From contig NC_091476.1 of assembly GCF_036971445.1 (NCBI RefSeq), forward strand, positions 141,174,001-141,238,000: 64,000 bases of DNA. The letters are read 5' to 3'. This DNA is from Narcine bancroftii (taxonomy: Eukaryota). Under the pieces are notes generated by a model. The model made no database searches, was not told the origin of the DNA, and saw only the letters and a list, made by a program, of their open reading frames with translations. Positions 41,807 to 49,371 of the stretch are shown piece after piece. The position numbers and the translations under genes are program-made. How positions within the stretch are numbered: the first letter of the stretch is position 1; each line of letters starts with the position of its first letter.

Positions 41807-42808
41807 ATGCTAAGCTGTTAAGGGGTCTTTTCACTTTCACAGGTTTCGAACAAATCCTACAATCTTCAATACACATTTTCAGCCACAACATTGTTTTACC
41901 AAAAATCTAGAAAGCTAGTTCTTCAATAAAATTGCACAAGATGCCGAAACTCCGTGATCTGGTCTATTCCTTAAAATACATTTACTAATTTTACAAAAAG
42001 TCAAAATTTCTACATCAATTTATATCAAAATTATAAAATTAAAACTAGTCTACAATATATCCCAAAGTAATTGTTAGATTCTAGTTATCCAATCACCACT
42101 GTCACCTTCATTAATCAGATTTAGCAAAATGCTTCAAAAAAATTAGAACAAATATAAATCAAAATATCGTACTGCTGGTCAAAGCATCTAGTAAAAGTCA
42201 CCTGAGATGGAGACACCAATCATGTGCCACAAGAGTGGTCACAGTTAAAAGGACAAAAAACCTGCTTAGAAGGCAAATGCCTCCCAAAATATATAGGTGC
42301 TCACAGCTTGCAAGCATCCACCAATGAATGTCAACCCCTGCTTTAAATTTACATGGTTAAGACACTTCATGGCACCTGCAATATTTTTGCAGCACCTATC
42401 TGATTTAGGAGTGGAGGTTAAACAAAAAAACATTACTCCAGGTTGGAGAAATAAAATTGTACCATTTTAAGGAGAGCATTAACTGAGGATTTTTCTTGGG
42501 AAGTAACAAATGAAGGGAAAATGAACTCAATCTTAAGAGCATTCTGACCCATCATTTTCTGTTGTCAATGTAGCCAGAAATTAAAAGGCTGTGAACATCT
42601 CAAACAAAAATAATTCTCAAAAAGAATTTTTTTTTTTTTTTTAGCAGCACTGAGATGAGACCAAGATTACGAGTTAAACGGTCTTAATACAAATCTGCAT
42701 TACACATGGATCATTTAAGGTAGTAAAAAAAAAATCACATTCAAAACATTTAAAGAGAATGAACTGTTTCACTACAGTAGGATACAATATCAGGACTTGG
42801 CTGGTTAC

Positions 42809-43135
42809 CTTAAATTTGGCTGTCAACTTGACCTTGCACCGTCAGCTTGACCTTTAACTCTTTAAGTGCTTGCCAGAAGGACTTGACATGAGGCGCTGGC
42901 CCAAATAAGACACTTGACTTTGACAAAACAACCTTTTTCCAATTGCGGACAAATCGAAGCCTTGACTTTTTCCCTCTTCAAGCTTTAATCTTTTTTCACC
43001 CTCCCTCTCTTTTCTTCAAGCCTGATCCTTAAGAGGTCTTTGGCTTGTCTGCTTGTCTTATGCTTGGATTCTATCTAAAAGGCTCTTTCATACTCTTTGT
43101 GGGATCGCCAGTTACAGCGGATTGCTTTAAATTTT
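42809..43135 (-). other. SRSF10: Putative SRSF10 unproductive/regulatory alternative exon inside the U12 intron
   Basis: U2 acceptor ctgac...ttttttgttgttgttgcctcag|, donor-like AAG|gtaacc, stops in all three frames within ~65 nt, GA-rich core. Confidence 0.7.
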
Positions 43136-45699
43136 CTGAGGCAACAACAACAAAAAAATTATGTCAGGGGATGGGTATAAAGAGACAAACATGCAGGGTT
43201 TGAAATCACTTTTTTTTTGACTACCTCCAAAACTAGCCGTAAAAGACACCAGCAAGTACATTTTACAAACAGCGTAAAGCTAGCCGTCATATTTTCCATT
43301 ATCGGAACTTCTGGTTAGGCACGCATTTACAGTAGAATACAAATAGCAAATATTGTTAGAAATGCAACACTGGAGTGTAATACATTAAGCCAGAACCAGC
43401 AGTCCCCTACAACAACTATCTCAACAATAGAACACAAGCCACAAACAATATGATAGCTGTACATTTTTATATCATCCCTCCTAGAAATTTTCGCAAGCTT
43501 CCTCGTCTCGTTATCACAGGATTTAGAGTAAACTAACATTTATGATTATTTCAATACCCAAGTTATTGACCATTTAAATATACATACCTTCAATTAGCTG
43601 TACTTTGATGGCCAATCTAATAATACTTACCACAAACCACATTTGGTAACAGGGAATGAAATAAAAGTTACCTCTTACTGCAAGATTAAACCTTCTATAG
43701 ACATACTCAGTTAAGATTCTTGGTTTTAGTTTTAGTCCATATAATTTAACTAAAAATGAAAATTTATTCAAGGTCAGATGTCCCAATGAAATACCCTGCA
43801 ATCTTGTTTGGCATGAGGCCAAATTTGTAGGAGGAATTTCATAATTTGCCTAAATGTTCTGAATTTAAACAGTTTATGGGATTGATGAACTTAACGGGAT
43901 AAAAAGGATGAGTGATATGAACTTCTAAGTTGTCAAAAATGTTTAACTTTAATGTTTATCAAGTATAATCCTGAATACTTTAACAGGTTTGACAATTCCC
44001 AAAACAGAGCATGGCATAAATCAGTTAGATCATTTCAAGGAAATTATACATATAAAAAAACTCCCTAAGTGAAATCTGCCACTCCAGTTTTGATGCTTAA
44101 AAATTTACATTAAATTAACTAAAGAGGGATATTAAAAAATCTCTGCATTAAACCTATTAGTATCATCATTATTGGAAGTAGTTGCACTTGCAGCCAAATC
44201 TACAGCACACATCAGCTGACTAGAAAAATGGCAACATGGAAAAGTTTTGAGAACAAGAATTCCCAAAGCCAATCTTGCTTAGATTTCAATTTTTCTTAAT
44301 TTGATTAGTATATCCCATAATACACTTCTAAATGTACATGTAAATGTGTCAAACGGTAAGTCATGCCCGTTAATCCATAGAACTTGCCAGAGCCAAGTTT
44401 CTTTTAATAAAAAATTATCAAAAATTTCAGTGATGTACATTAGTAGAAATTTTAATCTGTTTAAGCCTAATCAGTTTCAAATTTTATTATAATCATTAAT
44501 ACAGAGTAATTTTACACATGCATACAACTCAGAACAAATGCAATTTATGATATACGCAGATAACTCAAGTAGAACAATAAATGTCAAAGCTTCCATAAGC
44601 AGTGAAACTGAAGTCTTAAGCAGTTTTAAAGCACCTGACTCATTTTACACCAGTAGCTACATTCTAGTGAAATCTGGTACTGCACACCTGACCACTTAGG
44701 TTTTCTTACAAGACTGAGGAACTAACAAGCCATTGATCTACAAACACTTGAAATTTCTCAATGTAAATTTTTATTACCTATGACTTTCCATTCTTAAAAG
44801 GAAAATAATGCTTTAAATGGAATATAGAGTAAGCCATAACACTTCAAGCTTTGGGAATACAAAATTTGCAATGCTTGTAGCCAGGAAGTTTCCCTTAATT
44901 CTACATTGGTATATAAAATGAGGCAGGACCCTCAAATGCATTTTGCTTACAAAAACCAGGACATGTCCATACTATTCAATTAAGGCTTAATCAGCCTGTT
45001 ATGAATCATCCAAAAAGTAATCAACAAGTTTTCAACAGCTAAACAGTTACAGTAATTACCAAGTAATACTCTTTTTAGATTCCAGAGACAAGTTTAACAT
45101 CAACCTCACTAACACGAGCAATTATAGCAACAAAATAGGTAACCGTGAATTAGATCAAGTGTCATATTGAGCACATTGATAATTATGAAATAGGAGGTTT
45201 AGAGGGAATTTGAGGGGAATTGTTTTTCTATGCAGCCAGTGATCAGAATCTGTCACGTGCTGCCTGAGGTGCAAGCAGATATTCTCATGTTTAAGAAATA
45301 ATTAAACAAGCATTTAAATTGCCACGGCAGAGAAGTCAACTACCGAAAAGAATATGTATAGAGAGTGCAACAATTGACAAAGACTTGTTGAACCAAAGGC
45401 TATTCCTGTGCTGCAAGCAAATCATTTTGATCTTGGAGCATCACTGCAAGAACTTTCTTCAGATTCTGCCCTAAACCAGACTTTCTGAAGCCAATATGGT
45501 CACATCTTCCCTCTATTACAAATTCAGATATAGTGCACTCATTAACGCCAGCGCTCAGCTGTGCCGCAAATGTCTGGAGAACAACCAGTCTGAGCTTAGC
45601 ATTATTCACACGACAAATTCCATGACAGAACTTGATTAATGCTATTGGGATCAGAACTCCAATGGATCAGTTACACAGACTGTAGTTGCCCAAGTCAAA

Positions 45700-46285
45700 T
45701 ACTGGTGTCACAAATAGATAGGATCGGTCATCAAGAGAGCTTTTGGCACATTCACCATCATAAATTAAATTAAAGTACAAGAGATGGGAAGTTATGGTGA
45801 AACCACATTTGGACTATTATGTATAGTTATGGTCACCTAACAGGAAAGATAGCAATGCAACAGAGTGCAGAGATTTCCAAAAAAATGTGCTGGCACTTAA
45901 GCAAGTTACAGGTTAAATAATTTAGGACTTTATTCCCTTGAGCATTGTAGTTTGATAGAGATAAACAAAATTATACAAAAGAATAAATATAAGCATTCTT
46001 TCAACTGAAGTAAGGAGAGAAAAGAACTAGAGGACATGGGTTAAGAGTGAAAGGTGAAACATTTAAAGGGAACATCACCCAGAGTGGTGAGCGTGTGGAA
46101 CAAGCAGCCAGCTGAAGTGGAGAATGCAGGCTTAATTTTGACATTTAATAAAAAAATTGGACAGGTACTTGAATGGGAGGTATGGAGGTCTTGGGTGCAG
46201 GTCATAGAGATTAAGTGACAATAGTTATACAAACTAGACAGGGTAAAAGGGCCCATTTCTGTGCTGAAGTGTTTTGGATTCTTTA
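45700..46285 (+). mobile_element. Degenerate CR1 3' fragment
   Basis: Similar to the copies at 670-1182 and 23043-23275. Confidence 0.65.
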
Positions 46286-47703: not shown

Positions 47704-48769
47704 TTCCTAAAGATGAACTATATAATCATTTTCACTAACATTGGAATATTGAGCTACTGCACACATTTACCTCATTAGTAACTTTCAAACTTGTCTCTGG
47801 AATAAAAAAAACCCGCAAAGAAGCAGCATTTAACATCTCACTTCCAAGGAACCTATCAAAGTCTATCTTACTAGAGCACAAATCTGCACAGATGCAGAAT
47901 TAACAGGCCTTTCTTGCTGATGCTGCCCAATTACACCCATGTGACAAATTAACCTACCAACCCTGTGCAGCTTTGGAATGTCTGAGCATTAACCCAAAAT
48001 GTTGCTTTATTTCTCACTATTTTATTATTGACTGAGCCCGCATTTAATCGCAAGGTGGTGTTATCAAAATTTCAGGTAAAACAAAGCCACGTTAGTCAGC
48101 AGAACAATCAAAATTCAATTTCAATCTAAATTCTTCTTTAGAAGACTACTGTCTCATTCAAGACAACTGTACAGTTCCATCACTTCATATCCATGTTTAT
48201 TACTGTGCTGTTCTGCAAAAGAAAATGCTGATAAACTATCTGATTGACTCCCTTTAACCTCACTGGGGCCCGAGCCAAAGTTCCCTCAAAGCTCTCTGGG
48301 TTCACTGGAAAATGCATTACTGTAGAATAGTGTAATAGCTAAAAAGTGTTTAGGGTACAGTATTAGCAGGAATAATATCCAATAGTCCAGAAAAATTTGC
48401 CAGTTCAGAGATCTGAGGTTGCCAAATTAATCAGTTTTATTGAAATACCAAATTTCAATCTGAAGTTAAAATTTAAAATACCCTTTTGACAGGCATGTTA
48501 ATGATCCAACAATTTAAACATACTGATAAACCCACTTTTGGTGTGAATTAACTAAAGCTCCACTAAGTAAGCTGGGTGGTTCCTGTGAATTATAGGATTC
48601 AAATTTAACAAGATGCCCAACTTTCATATTGGAATTAGCATCCCTAAACAGTCATATCGATTCATATAACAACTTGAGGTATTTTATGAGCTATTACTGT
48701 GCACAATGAACAGGAAATGAGGAGAGATGGGCTTACACATTTGTAAACAAGACCAATTTAAAACTATTA

Positions 48770-49002
48770 ACTTGCATTCTTAGAAGAGATGTAGAAGAAT
48801 TTCTTCAACCAGAGGGCAGTGAATCCGTGGAATTTGTTGTCACAGTTGTGCAGGCCAGGCCATTGGGTGTATTTAAGGCAGAGACTGATAGGTTCTTGAT
48901 TAGTCAGGGGAAAGGATATGGGTAGAAGGGGCTGAAATGGATCGGAACATGATGTCTTATGGTCTACATGCAAGGAACATTTGGAGTATCTGCTCCTATG
49001 AT
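48770..49002 (+). mobile_element. CR1 3' end
   Basis: Same family as 9865-10145 (aaccagagggcagtgaatccgtggaatttgttg...tctgctcctatg). Confidence 0.65.
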
Positions 49003-49371
49003 CCCAAATTAGTGCTTCTCTGAAAATTGTATTCTGAAGGACTAGAGTTAGCAAAAATATTTTGTTTAAATCTCTAAAATTTAAAAATTAAAACTTTAAA
49101 ATTGCCATGATGTATTTCCACTCACTCACAATAGTGCATACAGCACTAACCACTACACCAGATAATGGACAAAATCAAAATATGAATATGCTTTCCATAA
49201 GCAGTGGAACCTCATTGCACACACAGCCCAACATTGTATCTTATAAAGCTCCACCAAGGTTCCAAAGAAAACGTTTTACTGAACTAAAATCAATAAGACA
49301 TTAAAATGCATCAAAATGAAAAGACTCAGTATCTCTGCTTCACTCATTTAGGAAAACTGAAGAAAGGATAT

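What the first reader, a model, noticed from the sequence alone, without database searches (positions are those of the whole stretch)
41807..49371. SRSF10 minor intron appears to have non-canonical AT-AT termini
Seen: the donor is a textbook U12 site (|ATATCCTTT) and the branch site is CCCCTTAAC. However, the junction that restores GFAYIQ-FEDVRD (CA|G TTT) requires the intron to end ...CTTAGCAT|, that is AT rather than AC, 11 nt after the branch A. The alternative is TTAG| three nt upstream (AT-AG, in frame, giving YIHMF instead of YIQF), but that is only 8 nt from the branch point. Known: U12 3' sites are chosen largely by distance from the branch point, AT-AT ends are rare, and SRSF10 levels in mammals are reported to depend on minor-spliceosome activity. 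Inference: a naturally weakened rate-limiting intron, or a tandem AG/AT acceptor producing two RRM variants next to RNP1.
Basis: partly seen in the sequence, partly recalled or inferred. Interest (0 to 1): 0.7.

Follow-up and report, generated by a model that had tools for sequence, protein, structure and literature searches.

The report
SRSF10 minor intron really ends AT
An intron in this animal's splicing-regulator gene SRSF10 carries the signals of the rare minor splicing machinery and is cut at AT...AT ends instead of the AT...AC of mammals, but that ending is a known variant also found in other vertebrates and in the human sister gene SRSF12, so it is likely an old, harmless difference rather than a special switch.

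Summary
Confirmed. Intron 41807-49371 (minus strand, 7,565 nt) of SRSF10 has a U12 donor, a CCCCTTAAC branch site and AT-AT ends. A transcript contig joins 49372 to 41806, and base 41807 matches in two runs and in a retrocopy. No contig uses the AG 3 nt upstream, so the two-RRM idea is unsupported.

The AT end is not special. AT-AT is a catalogued U12 subtype, human SRSF12 has it in this same intron, and an AT end occurs in other vertebrate-like sequences. Human AT-AT introns are not more retained than AT-AC ones (median 0.074 vs 0.119, p=0.23). AT likely arose by CpG decay of AC|G: exon base +1 is G in 5 of 8 AT-AT vs 13 of 66 AT-AC human introns (p=0.018, post hoc).

The likely throttle is the known poison exon 3. 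Here it leaves through a U2 donor to a U2 acceptor 57 nt upstream of the U12 site. That path was about 1.7 times as deep as the productive junction in one run, and it is fossilised in a retrocopy.

This scan noted the same AT end before in another cartilaginous fish (e1-9873115).

The parts
51827..51891 (-). SRSF10 exon 1, coding part (ATG at 51891), GT donor
   Evidence: joined to exon 2 in the C9 retrocopy and to exon 3 in the C8 retrocopy
49372..49476 (-). Exon 2 (RRM first half, ends in GFAYI plus CA of the Gln codon)
   Evidence: its last 30 nt are the loose end at 41806 in run X6
49363..49371 (-). U12-type A-class donor ATATCCTTT; the first 15 intron nt equal those of human SRSF10
41807..49371 (-). 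U12-type intron, 7,565 nt, AT-AT termini
49344..49346 (-). TGA stop reached when exon 2 reads through the U12 donor (65-aa product)
   Evidence: the downstream U2 donor that mammals use at +60 has no GT at that place here, and the one used here was not located
42809..43135 (-). Poison exon 3 (327 nt), U2 acceptor with pyrimidine tract, purine-rich stretch at 43017-42988, U2 donor GTAACC at 42808
   Evidence: its end is the loose end at 41870 in X6; whole exon present in the C8 retrocopy at 95% identity
42777..42785 (-). U12-like G-class donor GTATCCTAC, 23 nt past the U2 donor; same motif as the rarely used minor donor of human exon 3
   Evidence: use not seen here
41807..41865 (-). Upstream U2 acceptor (AG at 41865-41864) and the 57-nt extension of exon 4, which contains the U12 branch site and 3' site
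   Evidence: junction also in the C8 retrocopy
41817..41825 (-). U12 branch site CCCCTTAAC (TCCTTAAC in the C8 retrocopy)
   Evidence: by inspection 6 pairs with GUAAGG of this genome's U12 snRNA
41810..41811 (-). AG 3 nt upstream of the used 3' site, 8 nt from the branch A; not seen used
41807..41808 (-). Terminal AT, 11 nt from the branch A; the used 3' splice site
41703..41806 (-). Exon 4 (RRM second half)
40418..40589 (-). Exon 5 (start of RS domain)
   Evidence: spliced to exon 4 in X1 and X6
33621..34079 (+). PNRC-family ORF tail to tail with the gene; synteny marker
   Evidence: that PNRC2 neighbours SRSF10 in human is recalled, not from a call

Best explanation
This is the SRSF10 intron with U12-type signals, cut at AT...AT; its last base T is likely an old, tolerated variant rather than a regulatory device. 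SHOWN: U12-type donor and branch site, junction 49372>41806, real T at 41807, no AG-spliced contig, and an abundant route from exon 3 to an upstream U2 acceptor. INFERRED from established U12 biology: U11/U12 bind the donor and branch site, and the 3' cut is set by distance from the branch A (optimum 11-13 nt). An A-class donor accepts AN ends, so the AT at 11 nt wins over the AG at 8 nt. INFERRED origin: an ancestral AC|G junction (seen in an invertebrate-like contig) is a CpG. Deamination gives AT|G (this gene) or AC|A (human SRSF10), and the AT state is probably older than the SRSF10/SRSF12 split. INFERRED regulation: output is limited by competition between the U12 path and major-spliceosome inclusion of poison exon 3, as published for mammals. 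Here exon 3 exits by a U2 donor to a U2 acceptor 57 nt upstream of the U12 site, giving a premature-stop message that would be degraded.
For: Junction, base and absence of an AG contig. Retrocopies. [quoted passage not shown] Human SRSF12 has AT_AT in the same intron, also 11 nt from the branch A (PMC8280824 supplement). Other AT ends: organism C (organism B only indirectly) and contig L012. AC ends: human SRSF10, L030, L015/L035. Distance optimum 11-13 nt, and AT-AG disfavoured: PMC3584512. CpG route: +1 G in 5 of 8 human AT-AT vs 13 of 66 AT-AC acceptors, p=0.018; intron CpG o/e 0.21. No excess retention of AT-AT: medians 0.074 vs 0.119, p=0.23. Poison route in X6: depth about 1376, vs about 808 productive and 85 unspliced; record 19 carries the gene's allele at 41824, not the retrocopy's.
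Against: PMC3584512 says non-canonical ends often splice with reduced efficiency. AT has been kept in at least three separate gene lineages, which could reflect selection. The productive junction was visible in only 2 of 4 runs laid (X6, X20), and X1's contig runs unbroken past it. The CpG test is post hoc, read by eye, and uses 66 acceptors from 67 of 228 hits, not drawn at random. A need for a purine at +1 (8 of 8 vs 37 of 66, p=0.019) fits as well, and 13 AC|G junctions persist in human. AT|A (L012, SRSF12) needs two changes. U12 dependence was not tested experimentally. Contig depth is a poor measure of abundance. Donors of the other species were not seen.
Confidence: 0.7

Rival explanations
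1. The terminal T is selected: it slows the second step of U12 splicing, so the poison-exon path wins more often and SRSF10 output is more sensitive to minor-spliceosome (CENATAC) activity.
For: Non-canonical ends often splice less well. AT at 11 nt is kept in this gene, organism C, L012 and human SRSF12. Non-productive or unspliced paths were the deeper or only ones seen in 3 of 4 runs. A-type introns depend on CENATAC.
Against: Human AT-AT introns are not more retained. Human SRSF10 with AC has a retention value of 0.385 and the same switch. CENATAC dependence covers AT-AC equally. AC<->AT switches occur even between human and mouse. In X20 the spliced contig was the deeper one (38.4 vs 6.66).
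Confidence: 0.2
2. The AG and AT form a tandem acceptor for the exon 2 donor and give two RRM variants (YIQF and YIHMF).
For: The AG is in frame. AG at the same offset is present in this gene, organism C, L012 and human SRSF10.
Against: No AG contig in X1 or X6; the depth arithmetic excludes one in X6. The C9 retrocopy has the AT junction. 8 nt is below the 11-13 nt optimum, and AT-AG is disfavoured. L030 and L015 lack the AG.
Confidence: 0.04
3. The AG is kept as the acceptor for the G-class U12 donor after exon 3, so one branch site serves two 3' sites chosen by donor subtype (A donor to AY, G donor to AG).
For: GTATCCTAC is conserved after exon 3 here and in human. A predicted human model (XM_017000102.1) joins that donor to the AG 3 nt upstream. 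The AG is present in 4 vertebrate-like SRSF10 copies.
Against: No branch at 41809 in X1 or X6; exon 3 leaves by the U2 route here. PMC7244321 says that donor is rarely or not used in vivo. The human model is a prediction. L030 lacks the AG.
Confidence: 0.06
4. The T is an assembly error or a private allele, and the true end is AC.
For: None found.
Against: Contigs from two samples other than the probable source match base 41807. The C8 retrocopy has T. Other organisms have AT.
Confidence: 0.005

Closest known systems
Human SRSF12 U12 intron, AT_AT, chr6:89105531-89107153 (PMC8280824 supplement rows)
   Same: Same intron position in the paralogue (CA|xTTT), AT-AT ends, 11 nt from branch A to end, similar 3' end sequence.
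   Different: Different gene. Exon +1 is A, not G. No AG at -5/-4. The donor diverges after ATATCCTTT. Intron is 1.6 kb.
Human/mouse SRSF10 minor intron with poison exon 3 (PMC7244321, parts 1-2 of 5 read; PMC8329584 passages; PMC8280824 supplement)
   Same: Same gene and intron, identical first 15 intron nt, same CCCCTTAAC branch site, same TAG three nt before the end, read-through stop after the donor, purine-rich exon 3 of similar size (350 vs 363 nt to the minor donor), G-class donor after exon 3.
   Different: Mammals end in AC, 10 nt from the branch A. Their poison form is described as ending at a poly(A) site in exon 3. Here exon 3 is spliced onward by a U2 donor to a U2 acceptor 57 nt upstream of the U12 site, no AATAAA/ATTAAA lies in 42809-41864, and there is no GT at +60. 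Mouse data do list cryptic-exon use (CAT9) in this intron.
AT-AN (A-type) U12 introns with AT-AT ends: UBR3, ERCC5, KCMF1, SMC3, IK, TCTN1, HNRNPLL (PMC1557818 Tables 2-3)
   Same: A-class donor, U12 branch site, terminal AT, purine at exon +1.
   Different: Other genes; nothing in the signals sets this intron apart from them.
Nested U2/U12 introns (twintrons): prospero, HNRNPLL, ZNF207, C1orf112 (PMC8329584 passages)
   Same: A major-spliceosome path nested inside a U12 intron competes with it.
   Different: Here the nested path includes a whole poison exon and swallows the U12 acceptor into the message.

Membership tests
U12-type intron | 5' splice site RTATCCTT | tested here: met
   ATATCCTTT at 49371; junction confirmed
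U12-type intron | Branch site complementary to U12 snRNA | tested here: met
   CCCCTTAAC; this genome's U12 snRNA (Rfam RF00007, 144 bits) has GUAAGGA, giving 6 pairs with a bulged A and one end mismatch by inspection. The duplex-folding run gave a different, uninformative register.
U12-type intron | Branch A to 3' site about 11-13 nt | tested here: met
   11 nt (range)
U12-type intron | No distinct polypyrimidine tract | tested here: inconclusive
   11 pyrimidines in 20 nt, mostly the branch site itself, vs 12-16 for three U2 acceptors of the gene and 8 for the upstream U2 acceptor
U12-type intron | Splicing depends on U11/U12/U4atac/U6atac | not testable with these tools
   Needs knockdown; shown for the mammalian orthologue (PMC7244321)
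AT-AT subtype | Transcript junction leaves AT at both ends, and the base is real | tested here: met
SRSF10 orthologue (vs SRSF12) | Donor extension and poison exon 3 with G-class minor donor | tested here: met
   First 15 intron nt equal human SRSF10, not SRSF12; GTATCCTAC after exon 3
SRSF10 orthologue (vs SRSF12) | Synteny with a PNRC gene | tested here: inconclusive
   PNRC ORF adjacent. The second PNRC locus on C15 has no SRSF exon in about 63 kb examined. Which PNRC goes with which paralogue is recalled, and no tree was built.
Mammalian SRSF10 autoregulatory switch | Competing downstream U2 donor after exon 2 | tested here: inconclusive
   Stop conserved; no GT at +60; candidates at +29 and +47 untested; no RNA laid on that region
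Mammalian SRSF10 autoregulatory switch | Poison form ends at a poly(A) site in exon 3 | tested here: not met
   The abundant form seen splices on to 41863; no canonical poly(A) hexamer in 42809-41864; exon 3 itself was not scanned for one
Mammalian SRSF10 autoregulatory switch | SRSF10 protein activates exon 3 through its purine-rich enhancer | not testable with these tools
   Purine-rich stretch present (28 of 30 nt); function untested
Tandem (NAGNAG-like) acceptor | Both sites used in transcripts | tested here: not met
   Only 41806 seen in 2 own-species runs and in the C9 retrocopy; contigs drop rare forms

The most novel reading that the evidence does not exclude
The AT end at 11 nt is the ancestral state of the vertebrate SRSF10/12 intron, born by CpG decay and then kept by selection as a brake. 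In cartilaginous fish it works with an all-major-spliceosome bypass (exon 3 to an upstream acceptor that swallows the U12 site), so most transcripts are discarded unless the minor spliceosome is abundant. The AC of mammals would be a later release of that brake. More widely, CpG decay across the 3' junction would be the main source of AT-AT minor introns.
Probability: 0.15. Interest if true: 0.55.

Novelty: new member of a known kind. Interest (0 to 1): 0.25.

Why it matters
The AT-AT end is a known subtype, so it matters mostly for annotation: a pipeline that forces AG would insert a false residue next to RNP1. Two side results have modest value. First, natural AT and AC versions of one well-studied regulatory intron exist, so whether the last base of a minor intron tunes gene output can be tested with a one-base swap. 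Second, the poison exon here leaves by a route that I did not find described, and a retrocopy shows that the route is old. The CpG-decay origin of AT-AT ends was not found in print (search) and is cheap to test on public minor-intron databases.

Tried and rejected
RNA was laid only on 41450-42150, so the exon 2 side rests on loose-end letters, and the downstream U2 donor after exon 2 is unlocated. No run is on record as RNA (no RNA holder listed); RNA status is inferred from spliced exon 4-5 ends and exon depth far above intron depth. Only 4 of 20 listed runs were laid. In X20 the spliced and unspliced contigs branch near 41791, so they may be different alleles or loci.

Metagenome pattern scan: 4 of 32 loci were SRSF10/12 exons (L012, L030, L015, L035; the last two are identical in the part printed and count once). 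The other 28 were chance matches. Their donors could not be fetched.

SRSF12 was sought in this genome with exon 2 and exon 4 peptides. Only this gene, two retrocopies and an SRSF2-like gene were found; counts are lower bounds. A second ATATCCTTT at 48919 lies in an interspersed repeat and was rejected as chance. No protein-database search was made.

The two Dietrich papers on U12 dinucleotides and spacing (PMC1370826, PMC86782) are not held, so their results come second-hand from PMC3584512 and PMC1557818. PMC6800510 and PMC2831892 had no SRSF10 or AT-AT passages. File 13 of the PMC8280824 supplement, the supplements of PMC10639083, and the IAOD/MIDB web databases were not seen; they may already list AT-AT for fish SRSF10.
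Full report
1. Observation. On the minus strand the gene has coding exons at 51891-51827, 49476-49372, 41806-41703 and 40589-40418, plus later RS exons. The intron 49371-41807 starts ATATCCTTT and ends with CCCCTTAAC followed by ten bases finishing TAGCAT. The flanking exons are the two halves of one RRM. The terminal AT is 11 nt and the upstream AG 8 nt after the branch A. 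Joining at 41806 gives YIQF; joining at 41809 gives YIHMF.

2. Transcript test. I laid Logan contigs of 4 of the 20 listed runs on 41450-42150. RNA status is a guess by the tool; exon 4-5 splicing and exon depth far above intron depth support it for X1 and X6. In X6 a loose end at 41806 equals the last 30 nt of exon 2, which fixes the junction and the AT-AT ends. X6 record 19 and X1 record 7 cover base 41807 with no other letters and run unbroken through 41809. Bin depths in X6 fit a junction contig ending at 41806 (808.2 and 808.3 from two bins) and do not fit one ending at 41809 (1212 vs 707). Rare AG use cannot be excluded from contigs. X1 showed no productive junction contig.

3. Genomic fossils. 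Two retrocopies exist. The C9 copy (74-84% identical) joins exons 1, 2, 4 and 5, with the CA|GTTT junction. The C8 copy (92-97%) holds an inverted piece of exon 1, which looks like twin priming (term recalled). It continues with the end of exon 1 joined to exon 3, then the 57-nt extension, exon 4 and exon 5. It carries the same terminal AT and a TCCTTAAC branch site, so the T predates the copy. It also shows that exon 2 can be skipped.

4. Gene identity. The first 15 intron bases equal those of human SRSF10 and differ from SRSF12. A GTATCCTAC motif follows exon 3, as in human SRSF10 (PMC8280824 supplement rows). A PNRC ORF lies tail to tail; its link to SRSF10 is recalled. No SRSF12 was found in this genome (lower bounds).

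5. Comparison. 3' ends seen (end, exon +1 base, distance from branch A): this gene AT, G, 11; organism C AT, G, 11; L012 AT, A, 11; human SRSF12 AT, A, 11; human SRSF10 AC, A, 10; L030 AC, A, 10; L015/L035 AC, G, 13. For organism C, record 11 has 3 differences, all listed and all inside the exon, so its last five intron bases match. Organism B has the same loose letters, but its last five bases are inferred only indirectly. The donors of B, C and the metagenome contigs were not seen. The labels vertebrate-like and invertebrate-like rest on exon identity (33 vs 27 of 34 residues). AT-AT is a catalogued subtype: 6 human and 6 mouse cases, with switches to and from AT-AC between those species (PMC1557818, passages and Tables 2-3). 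It is the second commonest non-canonical end in animals (PMC10639083 section 30), and 8 such rows stand in the A-type sheet of PMC8280824.

6. Mechanism of 3' choice (inferred). U12 introns are defined by donor and branch site, and they pick the 3' site about 11-13 nt from the branch point. AT-AG pairs are disfavoured, and non-canonical ends often splice less efficiently (PMC3584512 section 4). This genome has a U12 snRNA with the expected branch-pairing bases. The AT at 11 nt is therefore the expected site.

7. Is the T a brake? I took the healthy-cell retention values of all 8 human AT-AT rows and of 66 AT-AC rows (hits 1-45 and 101-122 of 228, one duplicate acceptor dropped). Medians were 0.074 and 0.119, p=0.23. 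The rows are not a random draw. Human SRSF10, ending AC, has 0.385. So nothing points to the T as the cause of slow splicing, though only a swap can decide.

8. Origin (inferred). AC|G is a CpG, and its two one-step decay products are AT|G (this gene) and AC|A (human SRSF10). An invertebrate-like copy still has AC|G. In the same human rows, read by eye, exon +1 is G in 5 of 8 AT-AT and 13 of 66 AT-AC acceptors (p=0.018; 5 of 7 vs 13 of 65 without the SRSF genes, p=0.009). The test is post hoc. A purine requirement fits too (8 of 8 vs 37 of 66, p=0.019), and AC|G survives in a fifth of AT-AC introns. The shared 11-nt spacing of all AT ends hints at one early origin, but no tree was built.

9. 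Where the regulation likely lies. In mammals, SRSF10 output is set by competition between the U12 path and major-spliceosome inclusion of poison exon 3 (PMC7244321, parts 1-2 of 5; PMC8329584 passages). Inclusion is cold-induced (PMC11346455 passages). Exon 3 is present here at 43135-42809. In X6 it is joined by a U2 donor to an acceptor at 41864, 57 nt upstream of the U12 site. That path has depth about 1376, against about 808 for the productive junction and 85 unspliced; contig depth is crude and this is one run. The path uses the gene's allele at 41824, so it does not come from the retrocopy. Messages of this kind stop at 41 aa (exon 1-exon 3) or 65 aa (exon 2 read-through) and would be NMD targets. 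Cryptic-exon use in the mouse intron is catalogued (PMC6717393 supplement rows and passages). This particular upstream acceptor was not found in searches.

10. Verdict. The tandem-acceptor reading is not supported, and the weakened-end reading is possible but unsupported. This is a new member of a known kind. Interest 0.25.

Noticed in passing
L002/L003, G000:C8:107994152-107994903: Retrocopy of the poison isoform (exon 1 joined to exon 3, then extended exon 4 and exon 5), with a 5' inversion. It preserves a normally unstable message and an older, perfect-consensus branch site.
   Followed up: partly
L005/L046, G000:C9 near 244521255: Older, broken retrocopy of the productive isoform with the CA|GTTT junction.
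   Followed up: yes
window 42809>41863: Abundant U2 junction to an acceptor with a poor pyrimidine tract (8 of 20); why it is used so well is unexplained.
   Followed up: partly
whole genome: No SRSF12 found, although a second PNRC gene exists on C15; SRSF12 may be lost in this species.
   Followed up: partly
L012:150-260: Long pyrimidine tract with AGs 70-72 nt upstream of the U12 3' site in another vertebrate-like contig; may be a counterpart of the upstream U2 acceptor.
   Followed up: no
PMC8280824 supplement file 1: All 8 human AT-AT minor introns have a purine as first exon base, against 37 of 66 AT-AC acceptors read.
   Followed up: partly
L048, G000:C278:22809-22910: SRSF2-like RRM gene on a small contig, followed by GC-rich tandem repeats.
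   Followed up: no
window 1660-2020: GC-rich 24-nt tandem repeat, open in several frames, inside what looks like the first coding region of another gene.
   Followed up: no
window 59820-61031, 14733-15512, 52358-52732, 63062-63958: Several near-identical copies of a LINE-type reverse-transcriptase 3' end (family not checked), one just upstream of the SRSF10 promoter.
   Followed up: no
L051, L052: Two partial U12 snRNA copies besides the full-length gene L050.
   Followed up: no
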